Below, piece by piece: positions 2,554 to 14,713 of a stretch of 44,489 bases of DNA. This stretch comes from Candidatus Moraniibacteriota bacterium. GTDB lineage: Bacteria; Patescibacteriota; Minisyncoccia; Moranbacterales; UBA9337. Under the pieces are notes generated by a model. The model was not told the DNA's origin and ran no database searches. It was given only the letters and a program-made list of their open reading frames with translations. Position 1 is the stretch's first letter; every line of letters begins with the position of its first letter. The stretch is taken from contig JAVEXR010000001.1 of the NCBI GenBank assembly GCA_034003925.1, positions 14,966 through 59,454 on the forward strand, given 5' to 3'. The translations under genes were made by a program, and so were the position numbers.

Positions 2554-2650
2554 ATTTTTATAATTTTAGCTTAAATATCATATTCTATTATGGCGGAAAG
2601 AGGGGGTTTTAGCAAGGGAGGAGAATGTTCTAAGTGTTGTAGATGTTCTA

Positions 2651-2666
2651 TCCGCCAGCTGGCGGA
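2651..2666. repeat. Perfect 16-bp palindrome TCCGCCAGCTGGCGGA
   Basis: Related copies are TCCGCCGGCTGGCGGA (9331-9346) and CCTCCAGTTGGCGGA (9173-9187). Confidence 0.85.
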
Positions 2667-2772
2667 GTTGGAAATGTTGGAGATAGGGGAGATGAGGAAA
2701 TGTAGATTAATTTTGAATTTCTAATTTTGAATTTTGAGTGAAATCTTAATTTCTTAATGACTCAAACATTCC

Positions 2773-2788
2773 GTCAGTCGCGACTGAC
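2773..2788. repeat. Perfect 16-bp palindrome GTCAGTCGCGACTGAC
   Basis: Read directly. It lies in the divergent spacer between clpC and the surface locus. Confidence 0.85.
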
Positions 2789-2907
2789 AGGTTGAAAATT
2801 TAAAGATAAACCCCCTCTCTAACTCTCCCCCTTGAGTACAAGAGGGAGAGGATTGACGCTTCCTCATTAGAAATTCGAAATTTAAAATCTACTGTTCTAT
2901 TGTTAAC

Positions 2908-2946
2908 ATGCTAACGTGCTGACATGCTAATATGTTCCATGCTCTA
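2908..2946. repeat. Phased octamer array (ATGYTAAN type)
   Basis: ATGCTAAC GTGCTGAC ATGCTAAT ATGTTCC ATGCTCTA. Confidence 0.8.
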
Positions 2947-3027
2947 TACTAAATGATTATAAAAAAGTAAATGCAATTATTAAATTTCCAATGGATTATT
3001 TTTTTCGTAAATCTTAAATCATACATC

Positions 3028-3056
3028 TTAAATCTTCTGAAATTGTGTGTTATAAT
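3028..3056 (+). promoter_or_regulatory. Extended -10 promoter candidate for the large surface-protein gene
   Basis: TGtTATAAT at 3048-3056. The 14-mer TGTTATAATTTAAA is repeated exactly at 6278-6291. The -35 (TTAAAT) is weak. Confidence 0.55.
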
Positions 3057-3118
3057 TTAAAGAGAAAAGATTCTTTTGAGCTATTTATCCCAATAGCCAT
3101 TTTAGTCTTAGATGAATT

Positions 3119-5314
3119 ATGAAAAACAAAAAAAGGAGGAGAATGATAGGGAAAATTTATTATTTACGAGCAATTTTAATTTGTTTTTTTTGCTCTTTTT
3201 TATTTTTAACCAGTGATGCCCAAGCAGAAACCCGAACCAAGACGGTGGAATATTTTTTGGGACAAAACCAAAATTCAGGGACAGGTTTGGCAGCTAATAC
3301 TTACTGGTCTCCGACAGCCGTGACGATTGATCTGCCAGATGCTATAACTTCAGCTAATGCTATCAAATCAGCTTGGATAGATTTTACTTTTCAAACTGCC
3401 ACTACAGGCGCTCCGGGAGTTGTAACAATCGGACTTACTCCTTCGGGCATGACGGAAAGTGTTTTTACCTCGGCTTCTTATTTGGCTTCTGGTGAAAACT
3501 ATGCCATAAGAGTCAAGCCTAATTTTACTTCAGCTGTAGCCTCTAGGTTTAATGCGGCTGGAGCTTATTCTTTTAGTTTTAGGGCTAAAGTAGGGAGAGT
3601 AGCTACTAAGATGGCTAGCGCTAAACTTTTTATAACTTACGATTATGATAGTCAAGCGGCTGTTCAGTTGAATACTGTAAAATATATGATCGGGCAAAAT
3701 AATGGAAACGTAGCAGTCGGTGCAACTGGAGTTACATTTACCTCTCCTAATCTATCAATTTCAGAGAGTGCTCCCACAGTCGTTTCAGCTTGGGCGGAAA
3801 TAAGGGGACAGATTCCCGCTACCGGAACAACTGACAATACATTTGCAATCAATTATGATTCGGATACTGTAAAGAATTATTATTTGGATAACGCGGGAGG
3901 CGCAGATACTCAGGCTATTTATATATTGCATTCCAAGAATACGATTACTCTCAATACGACGCACACGCTAAAAGTAGCTGCCACTACAGGTTACCAGATG
4001 AATCTTGTTTCAGCGGAACAAGTAATAACTTATAAATTTAATTATGCTAATTCTACAACACTGACTAAAACAAGGGATATATTATTGGGCTCTGACGGAT
4101 TTCAATCCTCATCGGTTTCTTTGGACATCGATGAGACGATAAATATTCCGGAAGATAATCATAGTTTTAAAAACATATTTTTGCGGGGAACAGCGCATAG
4201 CTCTACAGCGGGCAATCGTAATTTAGCGGCGCAGCTAGGGGGGACGACTCCGACTCCGACTTTAACGTTTGCCCAAACTGCTGCCACAGAAACGATGAAT
4301 AATTTTTGGATATTGTCAAATGATGTAAATAATTTATCAACCATGACTCAGGGAGACAATCAGATTGCCACTACTTTTACGGGGACGATGACTTCGCGAG
4401 CGTCTCAAGTAGTATTAACTTATTCTTATAATAAAAGCTCGAGTAGTGAATCAGGCAGCGCCCTTTTTTGGACAGAGCAACAGACGGCTTATGGAACCAC
4501 AGGGACACCCAGTGTGAATGTTTCGGTAGCCGGCACTACTCAGTCGGGTAGTTGGGATTCATATATTTGGGCTAATTCAGTAAACGGTAAGACAGCGGAT
4601 AAGGACGCATATATATCAACTCAACCAACAGTAACTACTGTGTATAATTGGAATTCAACTGGCGAATATCAATGGATTTTATTTTTTCATCGGAATATTT
4701 CTGGAGAGATTAAGGATAATGGAAACTATACAATAAATCTAAATTCAAAAGGAAGTAATGTCATGGCAGCGGTTATGGGAGTTTCCTATGAATATTACGC
4801 TCCAACTACAGGCTCTTTATTAGTGGATATCGTAGATTCAGGAGGTGCATCAATAGTTAGCCCTTCGGTTAGTTTTTCGAGTGCGAATTTTAATTGGGGC
4901 GCTCAGCAATCTACAGCTACTATGGGAATTCCAGTTCAAAAAATAAGAGTGACTAACACCACTACTACTCCTAGTTGGACGCTTTCAATCGCTGGGACAG
5001 TGAGCACTAATCTCTGGACTAGCGGAGGAAATACTTATAATTTTAATGGGGATGCAACTACCGGAAGATTAAATGTAAATGCTAGTGGCGCAACCGTAAC
5101 TCCGCAAGGCGGTTGCACTACAACGGGATTGACTAACGGATCATCAGCTTATTTTATCCAGAGCACTCAAGATTCAATCAATTTAATTACAGCCGGAGCT
5201 AGCGCTGGGACAAATTGCTATTGGGATATCACAGGCGTGAATATGACCCAAGATATACCGGCTGCACAATTAACTGGAAGTTATTCTTTGAATTTAATTC
5301 TGACAGTTATTTGA
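3119..5314 (+). CDS. Large secreted surface protein: signal peptide, four tandem ~115-135 aa modules, C-terminal WxL-like domain
   Basis: 731-aa ORF. N-terminal K/R-rich region, hydrophobic helix and AQA cleavage motif. Thr/Ser/Asn/Gly-rich beta-type composition. The last ~165 aa are paralogous to the next gene and include PSWTLSIAG and a terminal YSLNLILTVI. Confidence 0.85.
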   Translation: MKNKKRRRMIGKIYYLRAILICFFCSFLFLTSDAQAETRTKTVEYFLGQNQNSGTGLAANTYWSPTAVTIDLPDAITSANAIKSAWIDFTFQTATTGAPGVVTIGLTPSGMTESVFTSASYLASGENYAIRVKPNFTSAVASRFNAAGAYSFSFRAKVGRVATKMASAKLFITYDYDSQAAVQLNTVKYMIGQNNGNVAVGATGVTFTSPNLSISESAPTVVSAWAEIRGQIPATGTTDNTFAINYDSDTVKNYYLDNAGGADTQAIYILHSKNTITLNTTHTLKVAATTGYQMNLVSAEQVITYKFNYANSTTLTKTRDILLGSDGFQSSSVSLDIDETINIPEDNHSFKNIFLRGTAHSSTAGNRNLAAQLGGTTPTPTLTFAQTAATETMNNFWILSNDVNNLSTMTQGDNQIATTFTGTMTSRASQVVLTYSYNKSSSSESGSALFWTEQQTAYGTTGTPSVNVSVAGTTQSGSWDSYIWANSVNGKTADKDAYISTQPTVTTVYNWNSTGEYQWILFFHRNISGEIKDNGNYTINLNSKGSNVMAAVMGVSYEYYAPTTGSLLVDIVDSGGASIVSPSVSFSSANFNWGAQQSTATMGIPVQKIRVTNTTTTPSWTLSIAGTVSTNLWTSGGNTYNFNGDATTGRLNVNASGATVTPQGGCTTTGLTNGSSAYFIQSTQDSINLITAGASAGTNCYWDITGVNMTQDIPAAQLTGSYSLNLILTVI

Positions 5315-5339
5315 CTTTTTCTTTCAGATGGTGTATAAT
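5311..5339 (+). promoter_or_regulatory. Near-consensus sigma70-type promoter overlapping the stop codon of the large gene
   Basis: TTGACT (5311-5316), a 17-nt spacer, then TATAAT (5334-5339). Confidence 0.6.
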
Positions 5340-5369
5340 TAATCTGTAAAAGTAAAAAAGGCAGTAAAC

Positions 5370-5440
5370 GGGTGAAAATTCTTTTCCTCAAATCCTTAAA
5401 TAAATAGGGAATTGAAGAAATGAATGTTCACCCTTTTTTA
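5370..5440 (+). terminator. Long imperfect hairpin plus T-run between the large and small WxL-like genes
   Basis: GGGTGAA (5370-5376) pairs with TTCACCC (5427-5433). There is internal pairing, and TTTTTT follows. Confidence 0.6.
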
Positions 5441-5540
5441 ATTTAAAAAATAAGTAAATAAAAAAATAAAAAATTACTCTGTAGAAACATATATTATAAA
5501 ATAATAAATAAAAAATATGTTTTTCCAAGGGAATAAAAAT

Positions 5541-6206
5541 ATGAAAACAAAAGTAATCAACTTGGTAGCTAGAAGAATCGGAATTTTTTCCATGATTCTT
5601 TTGGGAATTGTAGCTATTAAGGCCTCTGCCAGCAATCAATCCCAGTTAAATCAGTCGATTAACGAGGGAGTAAAAGCAATCGATATCGTAGACGCAGGAG
5701 GAGCTACAGTAGCTAGTCCAGCAGTCTCTTTTGCTTCGACTACCTTCTCCTATGACACCCAAAATACTACTGGAACATTGGGATCTTCTGCACAAAGAAT
5801 TAGAGTTTTTAATCCTACTTCCACCTCTACTTGGACAGCTAGTATCGCGGGAAGTGCTACTGGTGCCACTTGGACAAATGGAACTGCCAATTACGATTTT
5901 AATGATGCCTCTGGATCTGGCTATACTGACGGAGCAGATACAGATAATTTAGGAGGACAGTTAGCAGTCAATCCAGCAGCAGGAACTTTGGCTGGCGTAT
6001 CAAGTTGTGCTACAACTAATGTTTCCTTGGGTTCAAATAGTGCTTTTGCTGAAGGTACAACAGATAGTATCACATTAGCTTCAGGAGCTTCAGGCGCAGC
6101 AACTTTCTGTCGATGGGATGTGACTAACATAGGTCTTACTCAAAAGTTACCAGCCGCTCAGGTAGCTGGAGCATATTCCTTGAACTTAGTCCTTTCCATA
6201 ATCTAA
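5541..6206 (+). CDS. Small secreted protein consisting of one WxL-like domain (paralog of the C-terminus of the 731-aa protein)
   Basis: The ORF track starts at 5517, but the ATG at 5541 gives a typical signal peptide (MKTKVINLV...AIKASA). The mature part aligns with aa 566-731 of the upstream protein: DIVDAGGATVASPAVSFAS, RIRVFN..STWTASIAG, FCRWDVTN..PAAQVAGAYSLNLVLSII. Confidence 0.85.
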   Translation: MKTKVINLVARRIGIFSMILLGIVAIKASASNQSQLNQSINEGVKAIDIVDAGGATVASPAVSFASTTFSYDTQNTTGTLGSSAQRIRVFNPTSTSTWTASIAGSATGATWTNGTANYDFNDASGSGYTDGADTDNLGGQLAVNPAAGTLAGVSSCATTNVSLGSNSAFAEGTTDSITLASGASGAATFCRWDVTNIGLTQKLPAAQVAGAYSLNLVLSII

Positions 6207-6234
6207 ACAAAAGAAAAATTTATACATATTAAAG

Positions 6235-6263
6235 AACATTCTCCTTTGTGAGGATGTTTTTTA
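6235..6263 (+). terminator. Rho-independent terminator after the small WxL-like gene
   Basis: AACATTCTC / GAGGATGTT stem with a 6-nt loop, then TTTTTTAATTT. Confidence 0.7.
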
Positions 6264-6277
6264 ATTTGCATAGTTTA

Positions 6278-6286
6278 TGTTATAAT
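6278..6286 (+). promoter_or_regulatory. Extended -10 promoter candidate for the DUF916-like gene
   Basis: TGtTATAAT about 50 nt upstream of ATG 6337 and just after the terminator at 6235-6263. Confidence 0.55.
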
Positions 6287-6336
6287 TTAAACAAATTTAA
6301 AATGACTTTTTTAAAATAAAATTATAAAAATAAATT

Positions 6337-8676
6337 ATGAAAACAAAAGTAGTATTGAGTATGTTTTTGTTTGCAGTAATATTTGCTCTAGCTCCAGGAC
6401 TCGTTACGGCTATCGAGTACGGACAAATGGGTGGCAGTCCGACTAACTTTGATCCTAACGTTCCTGATAGCAAATCCTGGTTTATTTATAAACTTGACCC
6501 CGGTACAACCAAAGAAGATTCTTTGACAGTGGTTAATCTTTTTGAAGACTCTTGGACAGCCATTATTTATGCAGCCGATAGTCTTAAAAGCTCTAGTGGG
6601 GGTTTTGCTCTTAGACAAATAACTGAACCCAAAGAAGCTGTAGGCTCTTGGGTAAAATTTTATCCCGAAGCTAAACCTGCTTTTGCCAATAAAGTCTTTG
6701 AAGATAAAAAAACCATTGACGAAGTGTGTAAAGTTTCTGGCGATGACCTAAAAAATAACTATGAGCTGAGTGAAGATAATATTTCTGAACTTAAGAAATG
6801 GTGTGAAGGAAAGGAATTGGTAGAAATGGATCTAAAATCCGGAGAGAAAAGGGAATTGCTTTTTGTGATCAGTATTCCCAAGGATGCCGATGTGGGAGAG
6901 CATACTGGAGGAATATTGATTCAAAAGAAAAGTAAGGACGAAGCTGCTCAGAGTGATGGCTCAAAAGTGATGCTGACTACTCGCGTAGGGGTGAGAATTT
7001 ATGAAACCGTGCCTGGAGACATAAATAAGACATTGGCTTTTTCTAATTTAAAAATAGCTAAAAATTTTGATGAATTTTATTTACCTTGGGATAAAGATAA
7101 AAAAGATAAGTTTAAAGAGTATTTAATCACTTCGGATATTAAAAATAATGGCAATATTAGCGTTGATTTTAGTGAAAAAATAACCATTGCCAATGCAATA
7201 ACTAGGAAAACAGAAAATATAGAAAATCGTAATTTTCAGGTTTTAAGAGGAGATAATTTTGTTTCAACTCTGTCTTGGAAAGGCCCGCGTTTTGGATTGT
7301 TGAGTTTTCAAAAAGAATATCGTTATGCAAATACTAACGGTGAAGAGCAAATAGTTCAATCTGAATTAATTAAGAAATGGTTTATTCCCTGGAGAGAGCT
7401 AGTAATAGTTACTTTTTTCGTTTTGATGGCGACGGGAGTCTATGTTTTTTGGAAAAGATATCAAAGAAAATATTATGGGGGAATCGGTTGGATAAATTAT
7501 CAGGTAGGAGAGGGGGAAACTGTGCAGAGTTTAATCAAGAAATTCTCAGTGGATTGGAATGTTTTTGTTAAGACTAATAAATTAAAGAAGCCTTATCTAT
7601 TAGAAGCTGGACAAATGATAAGGGTGCCTAAAAATAATTCTGGAGACTTGCCCGAAGAAGACTTTTTCTCAAAAGAAGAAACTAACCCAATTAAGAATTC
7701 ACCGGAGAAAATTATTTTAACTCCCAAATCTCTGACTGATGGAGTAGCTAATAAAGATGAATTATCTGACGAAGATATTTTGAACAGAAAAGATCTTTTT
7801 GACGGCTCACCGGAAAAAGAAAATATTAAAGATGATGTGGTTGAGATAGCAGACATTAAAAAAGATACTAAGGATACTCTGATGAAAAATGATATTGTCG
7901 ACAGTTCTTTATTTTTTGCTAGTGATGCTTCGAAAAAAGAAGAAAGTTTGGAGGTAATCAAGGAGGAAGAGGTATTGCCTGTGGCTAAAACTAAAAAAAC
8001 AATTGTAAATGCTCAGCCTCTTAGGAAAAATGCTGATATTCGAAAACCACAAGCAACTATTGTTGAAGATGTGGAGAGTGATTTTAAATCTATTAAAGAA
8101 AGTGTGCCTGAGAAAAATGATGATTTAATAATTGAAGATGGTGCGGCAACTGTTTTGGGCAATAAGGATGATAGTAAGAGTTATTTTAAATTAGTGATTA
8201 TAGCCTTAGCCTCGGTAATTATTATTTTATTGGGGACAGTTATTTATCTGCTTATGAATAACAAAGCAGCAGAAAAGACAGTGATTCAATCAGCACCAGC
8301 CAATAGTGAGAGCAATCAAGGGTCTGCTCCATCAGAAAATGTAGCGGTGGAAGAAAATAAAGAAGAGGCCACCGAAGAGGAACCGCTTGACCCGCTAAAA
8401 ATGACAATTGAGGTCTATAATGCGAGCGGAGTGGCTGGGGCAGCTGGTAAAGTAAAAGACTTTTTAGTGAGTAAAAAATATGAGAGCGTAGAAGCTAAAA
8501 ATTATCCTGGTGATGAGGTAGCTGGTTCAACTATCTATTATAAAGAGGAAAGAATGAAAGAAGAAGCTCAGTGGTTAGCTGATATGCTAAAGGATAGCGA
8601 TATTGATGCTCAGGTTAAATTAGCCACCACAGAAGAAGAAAAAAGTGCTGACGTGGTCATTATCTTAGGAAAATAA
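6337..8676 (+). CDS. Membrane protein: DUF916/DUF3324-like (WxL-interacting type) ectodomain, TM, LysM, acidic linker, TM, LytR_C domain
   Basis: 779 aa with a signal peptide. The N-terminal pattern SPTNFDP..SKSWFIYKLDPGTTKEDSLTVVNL...SSSGGFAL, GEKRELLFVISIPKDADVGEHTGGILIQ and VGVRIYE matches DUF916/DUF3324 cell-surface proteins as I recall them. TM1 is about aa 354-372. LysM is YQVGEGETVQSLIKKF..LLEAGQMIRVP. TM2 is about aa 617-640. The C-terminal LytR_C pattern is IEVYNASGVAGAAGKVKDFL...ADVVIILGK. Confidence 0.8.
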   Translation: MKTKVVLSMFLFAVIFALAPGLVTAIEYGQMGGSPTNFDPNVPDSKSWFIYKLDPGTTKEDSLTVVNLFEDSWTAIIYAADSLKSSSGGFALRQITEPKEAVGSWVKFYPEAKPAFANKVFEDKKTIDEVCKVSGDDLKNNYELSEDNISELKKWCEGKELVEMDLKSGEKRELLFVISIPKDADVGEHTGGILIQKKSKDEAAQSDGSKVMLTTRVGVRIYETVPGDINKTLAFSNLKIAKNFDEFYLPWDKDKKDKFKEYLITSDIKNNGNISVDFSEKITIANAITRKTENIENRNFQVLRGDNFVSTLSWKGPRFGLLSFQKEYRYANTNGEEQIVQSELIKKWFIPWRELVIVTFFVLMATGVYVFWKRYQRKYYGGIGWINYQVGEGETVQSLIKKFSVDWNVFVKTNKLKKPYLLEAGQMIRVPKNNSGDLPEEDFFSKEETNPIKNSPEKIILTPKSLTDGVANKDELSDEDILNRKDLFDGSPEKENIKDDVVEIADIKKDTKDTLMKNDIVDSSLFFASDASKKEESLEVIKEEEVLPVAKTKKTIVNAQPLRKNADIRKPQATIVEDVESDFKSIKESVPEKNDDLIIEDGAATVLGNKDDSKSYFKLVIIALASVIIILLGTVIYLLMNNKAAEKTVIQSAPANSESNQGSAPSENVAVEENKEEATEEEPLDPLKMTIEVYNASGVAGAAGKVKDFLVSKKYESVEAKNYPGDEVAGSTIYYKEERMKEEAQWLADMLKDSDIDAQVKLATTEEEKSADVVIILGK

Positions 8677-8722
8677 AGATTTGTATTTTTTATAAAAGTA
8701 AAATTATAAAGTAGTTAAAAAA

Positions 8723-9088
8723 ATGCGGGTGAACTTTTTTTTAAAGACAATTTGGATGATAGTTTTGATATGTAACTTTCAAATTGCTTCGGCTGATAGA
8801 GCTGTGGCGAGCAGTTTAAATGTGAATCAAAGCATCTTGCCGGTAAAATTCGTTTACTTAAGTGGTCATGGCTATATCAATGATATCTGGAGTAATGTAG
8901 GGGAACGGGATGATTTGTATGTAGTAAAATTCTTTAATGAGGACAAGGAAGAAGTGCCTCTGACAGAGGGATTGTTTTCGCAATATGCCGAGAAATCTCA
9001 AAAAGTGATAGTGCAGAGAGATATCACTCAAAGTAATCAATTCTTGAAAGGTGATAAATTGACTGAGGAAATATTAACTATCGTTTAG
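8723..9088 (+). CDS. Small secreted hypothetical protein, last gene of the surface-protein locus
   Basis: 121-aa ORF with a signal-like N-terminus (FLKTIWMIVLICNFQIASA). It starts 47 nt after the upstream stop with no intervening terminator, and a strong terminator follows it. No recognisable family. Confidence 0.6.
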   Translation: MRVNFFLKTIWMIVLICNFQIASADRAVASSLNVNQSILPVKFVYLSGHGYINDIWSNVGERDDLYVVKFFNEDKEEVPLTEGLFSQYAEKSQKVIVQRDITQSNQFLKGDKLTEEILTIV

Positions 9089-9106
9089 GCAAATCGAAAT
9101 TTAAAA

Positions 9107-9138
9107 AACCATCCCGATAGTGAGGATGGTTTTTTTTA
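9107..9138 (+). terminator. Rho-independent terminator ending the surface-protein locus
   Basis: AACCATCC / GGATGGTT stem with a 9-nt loop, followed by a T8 run. Confidence 0.85.
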
Positions 9139-9289
9139 TTGTCTAAGCCTCTTTATAATTTCTACTCGCTCACCTCCAGTTGGCGGATTGTCGAAGTGGT
9201 CGGGTAAATAAGAAAGGTTCATAAAGTTAATACGAGTATGTCATGCTGAACTCGATTCAGTATCTCAGGATTTATAAATGAGATCCCAC

Positions 9290-9311
9290 ACCTGCCTGCC
9301 GGCAGGCAGGT
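9290..9311. repeat. Perfect 22-bp palindrome ACCTGCCTGCCGGCAGGCAGGT
   Basis: Read directly. Degenerate copies are at 42112-42131 (CCTACCTACCGGCAGGCAGG) and 42030-42046. Confidence 0.9.
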
Positions 9312-9419
9312 AAATGAATTTCTAACGCTCTCCGCCGGCTGGCGGATCCCTAAGAAATTTTACTTTCTCCGCCTTGGCAAGCTAGAGCGAGACAGGTGGA
9401 TGACACCGCTGGGGTGTCA

Positions 9420-9610
9420 GTTTCTTAACGCTCCCTTCGACCTGCCCGCCATTGCCAAATCAAATGTCTTAAATAGTTTGTTTAATGTGCAGAATATATT
9501 GAGCTTGTGGATTATTAATAGATAAGGCTGTGGCAGGCGGGGTTGATTTATTTTATTTTATCTGCCCGCCTGCAATGCAAGCAAAGCTCTGCGGGCAGGT
9601 AAGGTGTGGA
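9420..9610. repeat. Noncoding backbone repeat, copy A, interrupted by GC-rich inserts
   Basis: GTTTCTTAACGCTCCCTTCGACCTG (9420-9444), GATTTATTTTATTTTATC (9545-9562) and GTAAGGTGTGGA (9599-9610) match 42217-42271. Two extra segments are absent there. Confidence 0.8.
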
Positions 9611-9649
9611 TGGGATACATAATATGTTTTAATCTTAAAGCTCACAAAG

Positions 9650-9690
9650 CGGGTAAAATTAAAACCGCTAATTAACGCTAGCGGTTTTAA
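9650..9690 (-). terminator. Hairpin terminator downstream of the RND operon
   Basis: Perfect 10-bp stem AAAACCGCTA (9661-9670) / TAGCGGTTTT (9679-9688). A short U-run follows on the minus strand. Confidence 0.55.
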
Positions 9691-9699
9691 TTGATGTTT

Positions 9700-12600
9700 T
9701 TATTTAGTTTTATCTTTGACGAAGGTCATAAATAGAACCGGCACTAAAAAGAGAGTTAGAAATGAGGATAGGATTAACCCAAATATTACCGCGCTTCCTA
9801 AGGCTCGCCATAGTTCATTGGAAAGAGTGATAGGGATAATACCGAAGATAGTACAGATAGAGGTAACAAAGATGGCTTCCAATCTTGATTTACCGGCATC
9901 AATAATGGAAACATCAAAGGGAATACCACTATTGATATTGAGATTTATCTTATCAATCAGAATGATAGCATTTTTAACTACTATCCCAAAAAGCGCCAAT
10001 ATTCCGATTAAGCCAGGAAAGCTTAGACTGATTCCAAAGATAGCCAGACCCAAAAATGTCCCAATGAGCGCCAATGGCAAAGTAACTAAAACAATGGCGG
10101 ATTGTTTAAAGGAATTAAATTGAATAATCATTGTAGAAAAAATGAGTATTCCGGCAATGATCATTGCTCTAAGAATTGAGGCGACCGATTCAGCGTTTTG
10201 TTCATTTTCTCCTCCATAGGTGATTTCGTATCCTTCTGGTAATTCGTATTGTTGGGATAATTTCTCTTGGAATTGAGCTAAGATTTGATTGGAGTTGGTC
10301 CTCTTATCGGCTCCTGCAGAAAGATAGACCGTTCTTTTTTGATCAATGCGGTTTATGGTTTCGATAGAGGGTTTTAATTCAATCTTGGCCACATCTTTGA
10401 GATAAACAGGTTCGCCCAATTTGTTGATAATTTGCAGGTTTTGAATAGCATCTAGAGAAGGAATTTTTTCTTCATTGAAACTGGCTACCACATCGATGTC
10501 TTTATTGTCTTTTATTACGGTAGAGATAGTAGTACCTGAGATAGCTGTGCGTAGAGTCATGCCTACCAAAGAAGCATTAAGGTTATAAAGCTCCATTTTG
10601 GCGGTATCTAGTTTAAATGTGTATTCAGCTGGGGATTCTTTAAAGGATATGTCAGTGTTAATGGTGCCTTCAATTGAATCTAAGATTTTTCTTAAGTCGT
10701 TGGCGATGCTGTCTAGTTCTTGCAGATCGTCGCCTATGATTTGAGCTTGGAAGGCGGAACCAGAAGGTGGTCCTCCAGAGGGACTGCTAATATTTATGGT
10801 AGCTTCTTGGATGTCTTTGACATCATTGCGTAAACTGTCGGAAATTTCATAAGATTTTCTTTCTCTTTCTTTGGTGGGAGAGAGCTTTATTGTGATAGAG
10901 GCTGTGTTGGAAGTGTCTTGAGCTATGCCGATATTTCCTCCTTGTCCAGGATTACCAACTAGAGTAGAAAAATTAATTATCTCTGGATATTGGTAGAGTT
11001 TTTCTTCTACCTTTTGGATAATTTTATCTGATTGCCCAAGGTTTAGCCCGACAGGAGCGCGCATACTGATATATATTTCTTCGCTATCTGAGGTGGGGAA
11101 AAATTCTGTCTTAACAATGCCCGAAATTGGGAGAGATACAGCGATAGTAAATAAAAGTACAATAGCGCCAATAAAGGTGAAGCGAGATTTCTTGGTGCAC
11201 AAAACTTTTTTGAGATATTTCTCATAAATTGGCAGAACTCTCTCAAAGTTAATAATTCCATGAATCAGTTTTTGAGAAAAAGTTCCAGCTTCTCGATTGC
11301 CCTGAGCATAAAGCTTGGCTTTGATAGCTTCATCATCGCGCCATTCTTTTTTAACCAAAACGGCGTTTTCAGCCAAAACGTTCTTTCCTCTTGTGAAATA
11401 CCAAGACAACATCCAGATAGCGATAGCTAAGAAAAAGATGCTAAAGATATAACCATACACATTGTGCAAAGTGATAATAAAAATTCCCAGAAAGATTAAG
11501 GAAAAAAGGATAACGGCAAAGAAATTTTTAGTCAGACGAATTCTCTCCAGTACAGCGGCCAATGGATGGTTTATCATCAGGGCGATAAGAAGTGATGAAA
11601 CTAAAGTTACTGAAACAGTAATAGGAATTGATTTGATATATTCTCCAATTATTCCTGAAGCCATTAGCAGGGGTAAAAATGCCCATACAGTAGCCAAGGT
11701 AGTGGTGGTAAGGACGATTTTAAAATCGCGAAGCACCAAAAGAACAGCCTCTTCGGGAGTAAATTTGCCACTTTTCATATATTGCTTGGTGGCGCTAACT
11801 ACCACGATGGCGTCATCTACCAGTAGTCCCAAAGCCAAAAGTAATGAAAAGATCGAAAGAAAATTCAAAGAAGTCCCGGTAGAAAGCATCACTCCGAAAG
11901 TGGCAAAAAACACCAATGGAATAGCTAATCCAGCTACGAAAGCTTCCTTAAGACCCACCACTAAAAACAAAATTCCTACCACTAAAACTAAAGTTATCAA
12001 AAAATCATGAGCCAGTTGCTCAAAATCTTGTCTGATTAAATCAGCCTGATTGATGGTGGTGGCATAATCCAAATCTTCTGGTAATTTTTTTAATTCATTA
12101 TCAATGGTTTCTTGCGCTTGAGCAACTGTGTCCAAAATTGAGCTGCCGGTTCTTTTGATAATCTGGATACTGATAGAATTTTGAGGAGAATTTCCGTTTT
12201 GAGAAAAACGGGACAAAATCTTTTTTTCAATAGATTGTTCTTTGACCTCGGCAATATCTCTTAAATAAACAATAGCTCCATTGCCAGTATGGGAAACAGG
12301 GATGTTAGCTAAAGCTTGCGCATCAAAAAAACGTGCGTCTGTTCTTACTGGATAATTATATTCTTCACCTTCGAAATTTCCAGCGGGAATAGCTCTATTG
12401 GTAGCGATAATAGCTTGATTAGCCTGGTCTATAGAGAGATTAAAAAAAGATAGTTTTTGAGGATCGTAAGCCACACTAAATTCACGTTCATCTCCTCCAG
12501 AAATTTTTATTTCTCGAATGCCGGAGATTTTTTCTAATTCATCTTGTATATTTTCAGCAAATTCTCGAAGAGTAAAACCATCAAAAGGTCCCGTTAACTC

Positions 12601-13128
12601 AAAGGTAACTACGGGCGTATCGTCAAAAGATATTTCCGTTACCTGAGGATCTTCGGCATCTTCGGGGATTTCATTTCTGATATCAGCTAATTTATCCCTT
12701 AATTTCCTGACAGAATTATCGATATCCTCATTGGCGTTAAACTCTACCGTTACTGAGGAAAAAGAATTAGTTGATTGAGAAGTGATTTTATCTATCCCTG
12801 AGATGCCAGAAATATGAGTTTCAATTTTTTTGGTAACCAGCTCTTCTACGTCAGTGGGTGAGGCGCCGGGATAAATATCTGTCACTACCGCAATCGGAAT
12901 TTTAACTTCTGGATTAGATTCTCGCGGTAATTTAATATAAGAATAAATTCCCCAACCAGAAAGAATAAGAATCATTAAAATGACAACTCTAAAGTTAACC
13001 ACAAAAAAATTCAACCAGCTTTTCTTAAGCTCTGGGTCAAATTCGAGTTTCTCTAAATAAACTAAATCACTGGATTTAATCTTATGAGATTTGGGAGAAG
13101 ATTTTTCTTCGGGTATGATATTTTTCAT
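9700..13128 (-). CDS. RND-family efflux transporter (AcrB/AcrD/AcrF type)
   Basis: 1142 aa with a 12-TM, two-large-loop architecture. Typical RND motifs are present (LALGLLVDDAIVVV, GILALFGIVVKNAIILID). Confidence 0.9.
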   Translation of the reverse strand: MKNIIPEEKSSPKSHKIKSSDLVYLEKLEFDPELKKSWLNFFVVNFRVVILMILILSGWGIYSYIKLPRESNPEVKIPIAVVTDIYPGASPTDVEELVTKKIETHISGISGIDKITSQSTNSFSSVTVEFNANEDIDNSVRKLRDKLADIRNEIPEDAEDPQVTEISFDDTPVVTFELTGPFDGFTLREFAENIQDELEKISGIREIKISGGDEREFSVAYDPQKLSFFNLSIDQANQAIIATNRAIPAGNFEGEEYNYPVRTDARFFDAQALANIPVSHTGNGAIVYLRDIAEVKEQSIEKKILSRFSQNGNSPQNSISIQIIKRTGSSILDTVAQAQETIDNELKKLPEDLDYATTINQADLIRQDFEQLAHDFLITLVLVVGILFLVVGLKEAFVAGLAIPLVFFATFGVMLSTGTSLNFLSIFSLLLALGLLVDDAIVVVSATKQYMKSGKFTPEEAVLLVLRDFKIVLTTTTLATVWAFLPLLMASGIIGEYIKSIPITVSVTLVSSLLIALMINHPLAAVLERIRLTKNFFAVILFSLIFLGIFIITLHNVYGYIFSIFFLAIAIWMLSWYFTRGKNVLAENAVLVKKEWRDDEAIKAKLYAQGNREAGTFSQKLIHGIINFERVLPIYEKYLKKVLCTKKSRFTFIGAIVLLFTIAVSLPISGIVKTEFFPTSDSEEIYISMRAPVGLNLGQSDKIIQKVEEKLYQYPEIINFSTLVGNPGQGGNIGIAQDTSNTASITIKLSPTKERERKSYEISDSLRNDVKDIQEATINISSPSGGPPSGSAFQAQIIGDDLQELDSIANDLRKILDSIEGTINTDISFKESPAEYTFKLDTAKMELYNLNASLVGMTLRTAISGTTISTVIKDNKDIDVVASFNEEKIPSLDAIQNLQIINKLGEPVYLKDVAKIELKPSIETINRIDQKRTVYLSAGADKRTNSNQILAQFQEKLSQQYELPEGYEITYGGENEQNAESVASILRAMIIAGILIFSTMIIQFNSFKQSAIVLVTLPLALIGTFLGLAIFGISLSFPGLIGILALFGIVVKNAIILIDKINLNINSGIPFDVSIIDAGKSRLEAIFVTSICTIFGIIPITLSNELWRALGSAVIFGLILSSFLTLFLVPVLFMTFVKDKTK

Positions 13129-13151
13129 TTTTGATAAGTTAAAGCAATAAG

Positions 13152-14225
13152 TTAATTGTTTTTCAATGTGAGTTCATCTCCTTCTTTTAGCAGCTTGCTA
13201 CCATCGATAATTATTTTATCTTCTGGATTAAGTTCTGCTTTTATTTCAGCCATTTCGCCAATAACTTTAATCAGTTCAATGTTTGTCTTTTGAGCTTTTT
13301 GCTGGTTAATTGTGAAAATATAGTTTTCATTTTGACTGATGGTTATAGCGGATAGGGGTAAAATTAAATTTTCCAAAGACTGTGGCAAGTAATTCATATT
13401 GAACTCTACACTCACGACTGAACCAATAGCAAGTGGTTGATTATCAATAGGCGTAGCCTCAACTAAGAATCTCTTAGTACTTTCGTCGGCCTGAGGGGAT
13501 ATTAGGCTTATTTTTGCGCTTATGGCATTATCATTTTCAAGAAGTTTTATTTCGTCGCCTAATTTGAAATATGATAATTCCTCTTTATTTACAAAAAATT
13601 GAACTTCTAATTTTCCCATTTTGGAAATAGTAGCAATGGGTTGTCCGGCATTGATAGAATCTCCGACAGAAACAAATTTTTGAGTGATTGTGCCAGAAAT
13701 AGGGGCGCTTACAAATTTACCATCCAAGGCGCCCTGTAGAGCTGCTTCGGCGCTTGCAAGTTGAGCTTCGGCAATTTCTTTGAGTCTTTTATTGGTATAA
13801 TTCTCATGTTTTTTGTAAACTTTTTTAGCTAGGCGATAATTTTGATCAGCCGACTCTACCGCTGATTCCAATCCCTTGATCTGACTATCTTTAAGTCCAT
13901 TTTCCCCAAAACTGGAAATTGTGCCAGCTAAATCAATGGTAGCTAGGCGTTGTCCTTGAGAGATGTTTTTGCCTAAATCAAAGTTTAATTGGGTAACTGT
14001 CCCGTTGCTGCTAGCGTTTAGGGTAATTTGTTGATTGCTGGCGATGATTGCGGGATAAATTGCAGTTTTCTTGAAACTGTGGCTATCTGAAACTGTTTGG
14101 GCTGATACCACAGTGGGTTTTTTAACGATAGTTTCTTCGGTGGCTGGTTTTTTTTGAGAAAATCTAAAAGCTAAAATAGCCAGAAGAGCTATGAGTATGA
14201 TTGAGATAAGTAGTTTTGGCTTCAT
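13152..14225 (-). CDS. Efflux adaptor, membrane-fusion protein (HlyD/RND MFP family)
   Basis: 357 aa with an N-terminal anchor, a coiled-coil hairpin (AQLASAEAALQGALDG) and lipoyl/beta-barrel motifs (APISGTITQKFVSVGDSINAGQPIATI). It lies directly upstream of the RND gene. Confidence 0.88.
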   Translation of the reverse strand: MKPKLLISIILIALLAILAFRFSQKKPATEETIVKKPTVVSAQTVSDSHSFKKTAIYPAIIASNQQITLNASSNGTVTQLNFDLGKNISQGQRLATIDLAGTISSFGENGLKDSQIKGLESAVESADQNYRLAKKVYKKHENYTNKRLKEIAEAQLASAEAALQGALDGKFVSAPISGTITQKFVSVGDSINAGQPIATISKMGKLEVQFFVNKEELSYFKLGDEIKLLENDNAISAKISLISPQADESTKRFLVEATPIDNQPLAIGSVVSVEFNMNYLPQSLENLILPLSAITISQNENYIFTINQQKAQKTNIELIKVIGEMAEIKAELNPEDKIIIDGSKLLKEGDELTLKNN

Positions 14226-14245
14226 AATGATTATTGATAATTGAA

Positions 14246-14713
14246 TTATTTCTTTCTATAAATATTTTTAAATTTAACTTCTTGCTCATCCAGAAAAGTC
14301 ATTAATTTTTTCATGAATTTGATATGGGTGATGATTTCTTTTTTGCTAAAAATCTTTTCGTTAGCTAGATGGAATTTTTCTATTTCTTTCATGGCTTTTT
14401 TTACTTGAGTTTTTCCTAAGTCAGTTATTTTAAGAATGGTTTCACGTTTATCCTTGCTAGAGATACTCTTGCTCCTAGTAATAAGCCCATTTTTTTCTAA
14501 AATATTAAGCCTTTGGGTGATATTGGACTTGCTTTTGCCAGTCAGTAAAATCAATTCTTTGGCAGTAGTTACTTTTTTGTTGTGTAAATAGCCCAAAATT
14601 CGCATGGATGACAAGGACAGTCCCATTGGATGAAAGATGTACTTGTTGGCCATAGATTCAATTTTTTCTCCAATAAAGATAAAATCTTCGGAGGGAATTT
14701 TAATACATTTCAT
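14246..14713 (-). CDS. MarR-family transcriptional regulator
   Basis: 155 aa. The winged-HTH pattern is LSLSSMRILGYLHNKKVTTAKELILLTGKSKSNITQRLNILEKNGLITRSKS..DKRE. It is the first gene of the MarR-MFP-RND operon. Confidence 0.88.
   Translation of the reverse strand: MKCIKIPSEDFIFIGEKIESMANKYIFHPMGLSLSSMRILGYLHNKKVTTAKELILLTGKSKSNITQRLNILEKNGLITRSKSISSKDKRETILKITDLGKTQVKKAMKEIEKFHLANEKIFSKKEIITHIKFMKKLMTFLDEQEVKFKNIYRKK

What the first reader, a model, noticed from the sequence alone, without database searches (positions are those of the whole stretch)
7396..8676. Unusual domain fusion and a topological paradox: LysM sits between two TM helices
After the DUF916/DUF3324-like ectodomain the protein crosses the membrane at about aa 354-372, followed by KRYQRKYY (positive-inside). 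It then carries a clear LysM motif (nt about 7489-7629) and a ~190-aa acidic low-complexity linker. A second TM follows (nt about 8185-8256), then a LytR_C domain (nt about 8398-8673). With a cleaved signal peptide, the peptidoglycan-binding LysM would be cytoplasmic and LytR_C extracellular. Three explanations are possible. TM1 may not be a true membrane span. LysM may have a non-canonical intracellular role. Or two genes (a DUF916-TM gene and a LysM-TM-LytR_C gene) may have been fused, biologically or by an assembly or frameshift artefact. I am not aware of the DUF916 + LysM + LytR_C combination in described WxL loci.
Basis: partly seen in the sequence, partly recalled or inferred. Interest (0 to 1): 0.65.

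Follow-up and report, generated by a model that had tools for sequence, protein, structure and literature searches.

The report
Surface-anchor protein with an inward-facing LysM
This is a real gene, conserved across many ultra-small (CPR/Patescibacteria) bacteria, for a cell-surface anchor protein whose normally wall-binding LysM domain is predicted to sit inside the cell; that is unusual and untested, but it is a variation on known protein families.

Summary
ORF 6337-8676 (779 aa) encodes a signal peptide, a two-domain WxLIP-like ectodomain, TM1 (aa 354-372), a basic stretch, LysM (388-431), a 185-aa acidic disordered linker, TM2 (619-642) and LytR_C (689-779).

It is not an assembly or frameshift artefact. 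About 70 collinear full-length relatives exist in independent assemblies, one of them 96% identical, and the TM1-LysM junction aligns without gaps.

The family spans many CPR phyla and is modular. Forms seen are ecto-TM, ecto-TM-LysM, ecto-TM-LysM-TM, ecto-TM-LysM-TM-LytR_C and ecto-TM-loop-TM-LytR_C. LysM never lies on the ectodomain side of TM1.

Four things place LysM and the linker in the cytoplasm and LytR_C outside:
- flank charges at TM1 (K+R 4.8 after, 2.0 before, over 98 sequences);
- polybasic tails at the same position in LysM-less paralogues;
- signal-peptide-less stand-alone linker-TM-LytR_C relatives;
- a conserved AxA cleavage site and a cysteine pair in the ectodomain.

The "paradox" is therefore most likely a true intracellular LysM, for which SpoVID and Kbp are precedents. 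The LysM-bearing tail is fused to a Cei/VirR-like LytR_C module. Its ligand is unknown; I guess a lipid-linked GlcNAc precursor. The neighbouring "WxL" genes are WxL-like only in gene organisation. I rate this a new variant of a known kind, of moderate interest.

The parts
6337..8676 (+). Whole gene, 779 aa: signal peptide, WxLIP-like ectodomain, TM1, LysM, acidic linker, TM2, LytR_C.
   Evidence: ORF. Domains. 97 homologues, including one 96%-identical 779-aa protein from another assembly.
6337..6411 (+). Signal peptide, aa 1-25, with a predicted signal peptidase I site VTA|IEYG.
   Evidence: Hydrophobic segment aa 5-23. A25 is invariant and the consensus A-x-A-IEYG is conserved in 77 sequences.
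6412..7386 (+). Ectodomain, aa 26-350: two Ig-like beta-sandwiches (WxLIP PGBD- and HBD-like). It carries a helical insert, aa 115-156, with conserved Cys131 and Cys156.
   Evidence: AF2 pLDDT above 90. Top PDB fold matches are WxLIP 9i25_C and 9i1y. Pfam WxLIP_PGBD hits 66 of 77 relatives. The two cysteines are at least 90% conserved.
7396..7452 (+). TM1, aa 354-372. It is preceded by the conserved juxtamembrane motif W-x-I-P-W-R-E.
   Evidence: AF2 helix spans aa 352-380. Its position equals that of the C-terminal anchor helix of canonical WxLIP (PMC10599100).
7453..7497 (+). Basic juxtamembrane segment KRYQRKYYGGIGWIN. The family motif is [KR]xxxKKKYGGxGW.
   Evidence: Mean K+R is 4.8 (D+E 1.0) in the 15 residues after TM1, against 2.0 (1.8) before it, over 98 sequences.
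7498..7629 (+). LysM domain, aa 388-431 by Pfam and 385-431 in the AF2 model, with a beta-alpha-alpha-beta fold. Predicted cytoplasmic.
   Evidence: Pfam E 1.1e-5, above the gathering score. pLDDT above 90. The family profile matches solved LysM domains of Ecp6, YaaH, P60 and SafA. The spacing to TM1 is gap-free in 77 sequences.
7630..8184 (+). Acidic disordered linker, aa 432-616. It contains two conserved short motifs, ELSDEDILN (aa 475-483) and VDSSLFF (aa 521-527).
   Evidence: pLDDT below 50. Composition. The motifs are shared with close orthologues and with stand-alone LytR_C proteins P0220, P0222 and P0225.
8191..8262 (+). TM2, aa 619-642.
   Evidence: AF2 helix spans aa 613-642. It is the most hydrophobic segment of the protein.
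8401..8673 (+). LytR_C domain, aa 689-779. Predicted extracytoplasmic.
   Evidence: Pfam E 4e-13. pLDDT above 90. The family profile matches PDB 2m5y, deposited as 'putative tuberculin related peptide'; that this entry is Rv0431/VirR is my recollection. The TM2-LytR_C part weakly resembles NCBIfam Cei.
3119..5314 (+). Large secreted protein (731 aa). Its C-terminal ~170 aa is the same domain as the small protein next to it, so it is the analogue of a 'large WxL' protein.
   Evidence: 42% identity between the C-terminus of the 731-aa protein and the 229-aa protein. Synteny is conserved in most related loci. No Pfam hit.
5517..6206 (+). Small secreted protein (229 aa): a signal peptide plus one ~180-aa beta-sandwich domain, the analogue of a 'small WxL' protein.
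   Evidence: At least 1187 related clusters, none carrying a Pfam domain among those listed. AF2 pLDDT 88.6. No significant PDB fold match. No WxL Pfam hit in 46 members.
8723..9088 (+). Small downstream protein (121 aa) with an N-terminal hydrophobic segment, conserved in the locus.
   Evidence: ORF. 45% identity over 62 aa to the C-terminus of the gene directly downstream in the Dojkabacteria locus L001.

Best explanation
The gene encodes a genuine, conserved CPR/Patescibacteria membrane protein that crosses the membrane twice.

Predicted topology (inferred):
- After signal-peptide cleavage, the WxLIP-like two-domain ectodomain is outside. By homology with Firmicutes WxLIP, it would hold the secreted small and large proteins encoded just upstream at the cell surface.
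- TM1 is the ordinary WxLIP anchor helix.
- The basic stretch, the LysM domain and the acidic linker are in the cytoplasm.
- TM2 returns the chain to the outside, where a Cei/VirR-like LytR_C domain contacts the wall or the wall-assembly (LCP-type) machinery.

The protein is a natural fusion. The cytoplasmic LysM tail of an ecto-TM-LysM protein is joined to the cytoplasmic N-terminal region of a linker-TM-LytR_C protein. The two halves are therefore topologically compatible.

What is shown: the domain content, its conservation, the modularity, and the absence of any artefact.

Most likely function (inferred, about 0.35): the LysM sits about 12 residues from the inner leaflet at a fixed, gap-free distance. 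There it would dock onto a GlcNAc-bearing lipid-linked precursor (lipid II or an undecaprenyl-PP-linked glycopolymer). This would tie the surface complex to sites of wall synthesis, as the LysM of SpoVID binds lipid II in the Bacillus mother cell. A cytoplasmic protein partner is the alternative.
For: Not an artefact:
- 97 homologues, about 70 with the full architecture. One is 96% identical at 779 aa in another assembly, and several cover 100% of the query.
- The alignment across TM1, the basic stretch and LysM has no gaps.

Ectodomain outside:
- Conserved A-x-A|IEYG cleavage site and a conserved Cys131/Cys156 pair.
- Best fold matches are the solved E. faecium WxLIP structures.
- Pfam WxLIP_PGBD hits 66 of 77 relatives, reaching 56-59 bits in some CPR relatives.

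TM1 is an anchor with its C-terminal side inside:
- Same position as the canonical WxLIP anchor helix.
- Mean K+R 4.8 / D+E 1.0 after TM1, against 2.0 / 1.8 before it, over 98 sequences.
- LysM-less paralogues carry polybasic tails (for example KKRKQKKLLRQKQKIERKK) at the same position.

Loop inside:
- K+R 4.4 before TM2 against 3.0 after it, over 76 sequences.
- Relatives P0220, P0222 and P0225 have no signal peptide. They start with the same acidic linker motifs (ELSDEDILN, VDSSLFF), followed by TM and LytR_C. P0220 has a stop codon 8 codons upstream of its Met.

LytR_C outside:
- Ecto-TM-short loop-TM-LytR_C forms without LysM occur in contigs labelled Saccharibacteria and Levybacteria. This hairpin puts both end domains on the same side.

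LysM is always on the side of TM1 away from the ectodomain:
- 94 of 97 by automatic scoring. The other three are cases where TM1 fell below the detection threshold.
- 21 proteins from the first search and further genome loci end with LysM as the whole 62-63-residue tail.

LysM is canonical:
- Above the Pfam gathering score.
- Beta-alpha-alpha-beta fold at pLDDT above 90.
- The family profile hits glycan-binding LysMs in the PDB.
- The consensus keeps G-D/E-T, the conserved Asn and G-Q-x-I-x-V-P.

Precedents:
- SpoVID LysM binds lipid II in the mother-cell cytosol (bioRxiv 10.64898/2026.07.09.737436, citing Delerue 2022).
- E. coli Kbp is a cytoplasmic BON-LysM protein (PMC6331434).
- The LytR_C-only proteins VirR and Cei act at nascent wall and bind LCP proteins through LytR_C (PMC11832169).
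Against: - No dedicated topology predictor (DeepTMHMM, TOPCONS) and no experiment was available. The topology rests on hydropathy, charge bias and comparative architecture.
- TM1 is only moderately hydrophobic. A plain, unweighted sum of the Hessa biological scale (values recalled from memory) gives +1.2 kcal/mol for this protein's best 19-residue window, and a family mean of about 0 with sd 2.3. TM2 gives about -3.8.
- The charge bias at TM2 is weak.
- LysM normally recognises GlcNAc-X-GlcNAc (PMC4083421). A single lipid II head group does not offer that, so the proposed ligand is speculative.
- The stand-alone linker-TM-LytR_C genes sit at the same syntenic site and could be deletion remnants rather than independent genes. 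Against that, they keep intact ORFs at only 38-43% identity.
Confidence: 0.6

Rival explanations
1. TM1 does not stop translocation because it is re-entrant, marginal or interfacial. LysM and the linker are then exported with the ectodomain and bind peptidoglycan in the usual way. TM2 is the real anchor and LytR_C is cytoplasmic.
For: LysM is classically extracytoplasmic (PMC4083421). TM1 is much less hydrophobic than TM2 on a simple biological-scale sum. NCBIfam gives weak alignments of aa 361-451 to signal-anchor-plus-LysM proteins such as ActS and NlpD.
Against: - The 21 or more short forms (ecto-TM1-LysM, then stop) would have no anchor at all, although TM1 is homologous to the canonical WxLIP anchor.
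- There is a strong, conserved basic cluster directly after TM1.
- LysM-less paralogues have polybasic tails at that position.
- LytR_C would end up inside, contrary to its place in LCP, Cei and VirR proteins and to the ecto-TM-loop-TM-LytR_C forms.
- The linker motifs occur at the N-terminus of signal-peptide-less proteins.
Confidence: 0.1
2. The cytoplasmic LysM is a protein-protein interaction module or a membrane-proximal scaffold, not a glycan binder. It would recruit or respond to a cytoplasmic partner, and the conserved linker motifs would be further docking sites.
For: The topology evidence is the same as for the best explanation. The LysM of Kbp pairs with a BON domain in the cytoplasm. 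SpoVID LysM also interacts with SpoIVA, and SafA is a coat-assembly LysM protein. The linker carries conserved short motifs, ELSDEDILN and VDSSLFF. The family has its own invariant residues (W385, W407) that I do not recall from the generic LysM consensus.
Against: The canonical glycan-binding signature (G-D/E-T, Asn, GQxIxVP) is retained across phyla. No candidate cytoplasmic partner gene is conserved in the locus; every conserved neighbour has an N-terminal hydrophobic segment and so appears secreted.
Confidence: 0.25
3. The ORF is a chimera created by an assembly error or an unnoticed frameshift that joins a DUF916-TM gene to a LysM-TM-LytR_C gene.
For: Only the unusual architecture itself. 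Shorter alleles do exist at the same syntenic site in relatives.
Against: About 70 collinear full-length proteins come from ENA, JGI, NCBI and Logan assemblies. One is 96% identical at 779 aa, and several at 50-65% identity cover 100% of the query. 59 loci from species-representative genomes carry relatives. There is no gap at the junction. No stand-alone gene starting at LysM was found: the candidates P0230-P0232 and P0334 begin inside TM1, so I read them as truncated genes.
Confidence: 0.01

Closest known systems
WxLIP (DUF916/DUF3324, CscA) proteins of Firmicutes WxL or Csc clusters (Hassan et al. 2023, PMC10599100; PDB 9i25, 9i1y)
   Same: Signal peptide, two perpendicular Ig-like domains, then a membrane anchor helix at about residue 350. 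Encoded next to one small secreted single-domain protein and one large protein that carries the same domain at its C-terminus. Best structural match, and Pfam PGBD hits across the family.
   Different: Canonical WxLIP ends at the anchor helix (337-365 aa). This protein continues for 407 residues: LysM, linker, TM2, LytR_C. It gives no Pfam WxLIP_HBD hit. It has a helical insert with a Cys pair. The partner proteins have no detectable WxL domain. The lineage is CPR, not Bacilli.
LytR_C-only membrane proteins Cei (Rv2700) and VirR (Rv0431) of Mycobacterium (PMC11832169)
   Same: One TM helix followed by a spacer and a C-terminal LytR_C domain, with no catalytic LCP domain. Weak NCBIfam Cei hit to aa 623-724. 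The family profile hits PDB 2m5y, which I recall to be Rv0431/VirR. Stand-alone CPR versions exist (P0220, P0222, P0225).
   Different: Here the module is fused behind a WxLIP-like protein and a LysM domain. The cytoplasmic part is a long acidic region with conserved motifs. No functional data exist for CPR.
Intracellular LysM proteins: B. subtilis SpoVID and SafA (mother-cell cytosol) and E. coli Kbp/YgaU
   Same: A canonical LysM fold working on the cytoplasmic side of a membrane. SpoVID LysM binds lipid II anchored in the adjacent membrane. Kbp is cytoplasmic.
   Different: Those are soluble or peripheral proteins. Here LysM is covalently tethered about 12 residues from a TM helix, and in the long forms it is held between two TM helices. 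Neither ligand nor location has been tested.
Chaperone-usher systems (PapD/FimC/CsuC-type chaperones with pilin subunits)
   Same: After WxLIP, the ectodomain's next-best fold matches are two-domain pilus chaperones such as CfaA, FimC and CsuC. The small partner protein's weak best matches are Csu and Fim pilins.
   Different: The pilin matches are not significant (E at least 0.01). No usher is present. The resemblance is structural only.

Membership tests
WxLIP (WxL-interacting protein; PF06030 + PF11797) | N-terminal signal peptide | tested here: met
   Hydrophobic aa 5-23 and a conserved AxA|IEYG site.
WxLIP (WxL-interacting protein; PF06030 + PF11797) | PGBD (DUF916) domain | tested here: inconclusive
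   This protein scores 20.6 bits, below the gathering score of 27.3. However, 66 of 77 relatives hit at E <= 0.01, best 7.4e-15; some CPR relatives reach 56-59 bits; and the top fold match is WxLIP 9i25_C.
WxLIP (WxL-interacting protein; PF06030 + PF11797) | HBD (DUF3324) domain directly after PGBD | tested here: inconclusive
   No PF11797 hit in any of 77 members. The AF2 model does have a second Ig-like domain, and the Foldseek alignment to WxLIP runs over about 330 columns, with TM 0.66 on the target.
WxLIP (WxL-interacting protein; PF06030 + PF11797) | A single C-terminal transmembrane helix that ends the protein (337-365 aa in total) | tested here: not met
   The helix is present at aa 354-372, but 407 more residues follow it.
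WxLIP (WxL-interacting protein; PF06030 + PF11797) | Clustered with at least two WxL-domain proteins, one small and one large | tested here: inconclusive
   The layout is met: 229-aa and 731-aa proteins share a C-terminal domain and are syntenic in most loci. The domain itself gives no PF13731 hit in the window proteins or in 46 family members.
WxL domain (PF13731), for the neighbouring genes | Sequence or structural match to the WxL domain with its two W-x-L motifs | tested here: not met
   No Pfam hit. A PDB profile search found nothing relevant. The fold search did not return the WxL chain of 9i25 in its top 50 and gave nothing at E <= 0.001. Two W-x-[LVA] motifs (TWT[VLA], RWD[LV]) are visible in the consensus, which is suggestive only.
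LysM (PF01476) | Profile match above the gathering score and a beta-alpha-alpha-beta fold | tested here: met
   25.7 bits against a gathering score of 20.9. 75 of 77 relatives hit. AF2 gives E385-389, H396-403, H407-413 and E427-431 at pLDDT above 90. The family profile hits PDB LysM domains.
LysM (PF01476) | Binding of GlcNAc-containing glycans (peptidoglycan or chitin) | not testable with these tools
   Only motif retention can be shown. A binding assay is needed.
LytR_C (PF13399), Cei/VirR-like LytR_C-only proteins | LytR_C domain after a TM helix, with no LCP catalytic domain | tested here: met
   LytR_C scores 50.5 bits against a gathering score of 22.2. No LCP-family Pfam domain was reported at E <= 1. 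TM2 lies at aa 619-642. There is a weak Cei hit.
LCP (LytR-CpsA-Psr) glycopolymer transferases | Catalytic LCP domain | tested here: not met
   No LCP-family domain among the Pfam hits at E <= 1.

The most novel reading that the evidence does not exclude
The membrane-tethered cytoplasmic LysM is a sensor or docking module for lipid-linked wall precursors at the inner leaflet. Together with the external LytR_C domain it would form a trans-membrane 'staple'. [quoted passage not shown] That would be a widespread, previously unrecognised inside-out coupling device in Patescibacteria.
Probability: 0.25. Interest if true: 0.7.

Novelty: new variant of a known kind. Interest (0 to 1): 0.5.

Why it matters
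- WxL-type surface clusters are described almost only in Bacilli; over 91% of WxL sequences are in Firmicutes (PMC9772566). This locus shows a WxLIP homologue with a matching three-gene layout spread across many CPR phyla. The partner family has at least 1187 clusters and no annotation.
- CPR bacteria live attached to other cells, and their surface and adhesion proteins are poorly known. A conserved, abundant surface module is therefore a useful handle.
- The predicted cytoplasmic LysM adds a clear, phylogenetically broad case to the few known intracellular LysM domains, and it gives a simple testable hypothesis about ligand and topology.
- It is also a caution for annotation. 'LysM peptidoglycan-binding' and 'LytR transcriptional attenuator' names say little about what this protein does.

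Tried and rejected
- Assembly or frameshift artefact: rejected.
- Split-gene test: the Dojkabacteria short-form locus L001 has no TM-LytR_C gene downstream. The next gene is a homologue of the 121-aa protein. The short form is therefore not a split long form.
- Search for stand-alone LysM-TM-LytR_C proteins. The candidates either begin inside TM1, which I read as truncated genes (P0230-P0232, P0334), or are ectodomain-deleted alleles that keep the signal peptide and TM1 (P0218, P0221, P0227). None starts at LysM.
- WxL identity of the neighbours: Pfam on the window proteins and on 46 family members, a PDB profile search, an AF2 model with a PDB fold search and a profile search of the large database gave no link to WxL. 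The last search listed only unannotated CPR proteins among its best 120.
- Literature: no paper in the library combines WxL or DUF916 with CPR, Patescibacteria or Saccharibacteria. The Saccharibacteria Tn-seq paper mentions none of LysM, WxL or LytR.
- A simple Hessa-scale sum for TM1 was inconclusive, near 0 kcal/mol.
- The promoter and terminator scan gave nothing above chance, apart from one good -35/-10 match upstream of the small-protein gene.
Full report
**What is in the sequence**

Window 6337..8676 (+) is one uninterrupted ORF of 779 aa. Pfam results:
- LytR_C at aa 689-779 (E 4e-13) and LysM at aa 388-431 (E 1.1e-5), both above their gathering scores.
- WxLIP_PGBD (DUF916) at aa 42-196, sub-threshold at 20.6 bits against 27.3.
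- No WxLIP_HBD (DUF3324) hit.

Hydropathy gives three hydrophobic segments: aa 5-23, 354-372 and 619-637/642. TM1 is followed by KRYQRKYY.

**Structure**

I built an AlphaFold2 model on a 77-sequence family alignment; mean pLDDT is 77.7. It shows:
- two beta-sandwich domains at aa 30-350, with a helical insert at 115-156 (pLDDT mostly above 90);
- one continuous helix at 352-380;
- a beta-alpha-alpha-beta LysM at 385-431;
- disorder at 442-613;
- a helix at 613-642, then disorder at 646-677;
- a compact alpha/beta LytR_C at 689-779.

In a Foldseek search of the PDB, the best three matches are the recently solved E. faecium WxLIP structures: 9i25_C (bound to a long WxL protein) and 9i1y. The best gives E 7.6e-13 and TM 0.66 on the target over about 330 columns. 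Two-domain pilus chaperones follow. Scanning all 77 aligned relatives, 66 hit WxLIP_PGBD (best 7.4e-15), 75 hit LysM and 56 hit LytR_C. More distant CPR relatives reach 56-59 bits on WxLIP_PGBD. The first ~375 residues are therefore a WxLIP homologue. Canonical WxLIP is signal peptide, PGBD, HBD and a terminal TM helix, 337-365 aa in all (PMC10599100). TM1 lies exactly where that terminal anchor lies.

**Not an artefact**

The large-database search returned 97 homologues. They include a 96%-identical 779-aa protein from another assembly, and proteins at 50-65% identity that cover 100% of the query. With local profiles, 70 of 98 family sequences have the complete order ecto-TM-LysM-TM-LytR_C. 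The alignment through W-x-I-P-W-R-E, TM1, [KR]xxxKKKYGGxGW and LysM has no gap in 77 sequences. A scan of species-representative genomes found 59 loci. Most are titled as CPR lineages: Parcubacteria, Moranbacteria, Kerfeldbacteria, Komeilibacteria, Dojkabacteria, Peribacteria/Peregrinibacteria, Microgenomates, Levybacteria, Saccharibacteria and Paceibacterota.

**The family is modular**

Re-annotating those loci gave five forms:
- (a) ecto-TM, the canonical form, often with a polybasic tail;
- (b) ecto-TM-LysM, where LysM is the entire 62-63-residue tail;
- (c) ecto-TM-LysM-TM plus a C-terminal region that gives no LytR_C hit;
- (d) the full form, as in the window;
- (e) ecto-TM-short loop-TM-LytR_C, with no LysM, in contigs labelled Saccharibacteria and Levybacteria.

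LysM never occurs on the ectodomain side of TM1. Automatic scoring gives 94 of 97, and the three exceptions are cases where TM1 fell below the detection threshold. In the Dojkabacteria short-form locus the downstream gene is a homologue of the window's 121-aa gene, not a TM-LytR_C gene. Short forms are therefore not split long forms.

**Topology**

Outside, for the ectodomain:
- an invariant Ala25 in a conserved A-x-A|IEYG site;
- two cysteines (131 and 156) that are at least 90% conserved;
- homology to an extracellular protein.

Inside, for the residues after TM1:
- Over 98 sequences, the 15 residues after TM1 hold on average 4.8 K+R and 1.0 D+E. The 15 before it hold 2.0 and 1.8.
- LysM-less paralogues carry runs such as KKRKQKKLLRQKQKIERKK at this position.

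Inside, for the linker:
- The 15 residues before TM2 hold 4.4 K+R against 3.0 after it, over 76 sequences. This bias is weak.
- An exhaustive search with aa 373-779 found proteins of 233-304 aa (P0220, P0222, P0225 and others). These have no signal peptide. They start with the same linker motifs (ELSDEDILN, VDSSLFF) and continue into TM and LytR_C.
- P0220 has a stop codon eight codons upstream of its Met.
- A long, highly acidic N-terminal region without a signal peptide is expected to stay in the cytoplasm. This last step is my inference from general membrane-protein biology.

Outside, for LytR_C: form (e) is a simple hairpin that puts the ectodomain and LytR_C on the same side. This agrees with what is reported for LCP, Cei and VirR proteins (PMC11832169).

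Caveats:
- No dedicated topology predictor was available.
- A plain sum of the Hessa scale, recalled from memory, puts TM1 near 0 kcal/mol and TM2 near -3.8. TM1 is therefore a moderate span, not a strong one.

**How the fusion arose**

Two relatives share the window's flanks (ClpB on one side, AcrB/HlyD on the other) at 74-76% nucleotide identity. They carry reduced alleles at this site:
- L064 has only signal peptide, about 30 aa, TM1, LysM, linker, TM2 and LytR_C. The ectodomain and both upstream genes are gone.
- L062 has only linker, TM2 and LytR_C.

Taken with form (b), this shows that ecto-TM-LysM and linker-TM-LytR_C are separable modules. The window's gene joins them tail (inside) to head (inside), which is topologically coherent. 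The only real oddity, LysM behind the anchor helix, is already present in the short forms.

**What the LysM might do**

The domain keeps the usual LysM signature: Y-x-V-x-x-G-D/E-T, a conserved Asn, and G-Q-x-I-x-V-P. Its family profile matches glycan-binding LysMs of known structure: Ecp6, YaaH, P60, LytE and SafA. It is on average basic, at +3.3 net charge. It sits at a fixed distance of about 12 residues from TM1.

Known intracellular LysMs are SpoVID, whose LysM binds lipid II on the mother-cell face of the forespore membrane, and the cytoplasmic K+-binding protein Kbp.

My preferred mechanism, at about 0.35, is docking to a GlcNAc-bearing lipid-linked precursor at the inner leaflet. The external LytR_C would contact the wall or LCP-type enzymes, so the surface complex would be tied to sites of wall growth. 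Against this, LysM normally needs GlcNAc-X-GlcNAc (PMC4083421). A protein-partner role, at about 0.25, is the main alternative. None of this is shown.

**The neighbours**

The 229-aa protein (5517-6206) is a signal peptide plus one ~180-aa beta-sandwich (AF2 pLDDT 88.6). The 731-aa protein (3119-5314) ends in the same domain, at 42% identity. Both are syntenic with the anchor gene in most loci. This is the small-WxL / large-WxL / WxLIP layout (PMC9772566, PMC10599100).

The domain itself, however, gives no link to WxL:
- no WxL Pfam hit in the window proteins or in 46 relatives;
- no relevant PDB sequence hit;
- no significant fold match; the best are Csu and Fim pilins at E about 0.01-0.1, and the WxL chain of 9i25 is not in the top 50.

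I therefore call the locus WxL-cluster-like, not a WxL locus. The small-protein family is large, with at least 1187 clusters, and unannotated.

**Comparison and verdict**

The protein works like a WxLIP anchor extended by a Cei/VirR-like LytR_C module, with a SpoVID/Kbp-like intracellular LysM between them. It fails one defining feature of WxLIP, because the protein does not end at the anchor helix. It also lacks the LCP catalytic domain. I file it as a new variant of known kinds.

I found no paper that links WxL or DUF916 with CPR. Databases carry these proteins only under automatic names.

Interest is moderate. This is a broad, conserved and easily testable case of an inward-facing LysM in poorly understood organisms, but it is built from familiar parts and its function is unproven.

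Noticed in passing
L062:4001-4915 and L064:4001-5455 (syntenic with window 2554-9699): Relatives with the same ClpB and AcrB flanks (74-76% nt identity) carry reduced alleles. One keeps only signal peptide, ~30 aa, TM1, LysM, linker, TM2 and LytR_C. The other keeps only linker, TM2 and LytR_C. Both upstream surface-protein genes are absent. The exposed parts of the locus therefore look dispensable or variable, while the LytR_C end is retained.
   Followed up: partly
window 7759-7785 (ELSDEDILN, aa 475-483) and 7897-7917 (VDSSLFF, aa 521-527): Two short conserved motifs lie inside the otherwise disordered acidic linker. They are shared with close orthologues and with stand-alone LytR_C proteins. 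Saccharibacteria- and Levybacteria-type relatives have a similar VD..F.AHH motif just before TM2. These may be cytoplasmic docking peptides.
   Followed up: partly
window 5517-6206 and 4800-5314: The small secreted protein, and the C-terminal domain of the 731-aa protein, belong to a very large unannotated CPR family (at least 1187 clusters). The family has invariant W119, W200 and C164 and an Asp-rich loop YDFNDxSGYTDGADTD that looks like a calcium-binding site. Its weak best fold matches are chaperone-usher pilins.
   Followed up: partly
window 5311-5339: A near-consensus promoter-like site (TTGACT, 17 nt, TATAAT; 11 of 12 matches) lies about 180 nt upstream of the small-protein gene. This suggests the small subunit is transcribed separately, perhaps at a higher level. 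The total count of promoter-like sites in the region is not above chance.
   Followed up: no
window 8723-9088: A 121-aa protein with an N-terminal hydrophobic segment sits immediately downstream. It is 45% identical over 62 aa to the C-terminus of the gene in the same position in a Dojkabacteria locus, so it is a fourth conserved member of the cluster. It has no Pfam hit and its function is unknown.
   Followed up: partly
window 6679-6804 (aa 115-156): The first Ig-like domain carries a helical insert with a conserved cysteine pair (C131, C156). The insert is present only in the closer subfamily: more distant relatives lack the corresponding profile positions 88-140.
   Followed up: partly
L026, L028, L016, L018, L024, L027, L010, L058: Some CPR loci carry two to four anchor-gene paralogues close together or in tandem (Peribacteria, Kerfeldbacteria). 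One protein has two tandem LysM domains in the loop between the TM helices (L010, P0057). One has two LytR_C domains (L058).
   Followed up: no
L018, L023, L043, L050, L041, L042, L053, L061: Several genome bins titled Gammaproteobacteria, Pseudomonadales, Bdellovibrionales, Pirellulales, Clostridia or Acidimicrobiaceae carry family relatives. For most of them I suspect mis-binning or mislabelling, since their neighbours and architectures are CPR-like. The Clostridia and Acidimicrobiaceae loci are distant matches and could be genuine relatives from those lineages.
   Followed up: no
window 9700-14713 (- strand): An AcrB-type RND transporter (1142 aa), a HlyD-family adaptor and a MarR-type regulator form an apparent operon next to the locus. 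An RND/adaptor pair is worth noting in a lineage usually thought to have a single membrane.
   Followed up: no
window 37318-38280 (-) and 40782-41915 (+): Other envelope-related genes lie in the window: a DUF348-G5-DPBB (RpfB/YabE-like) wall-associated protein and a protein with a thrombospondin type 3 repeat. The first fits with the organism having peptidoglycan.
   Followed up: no
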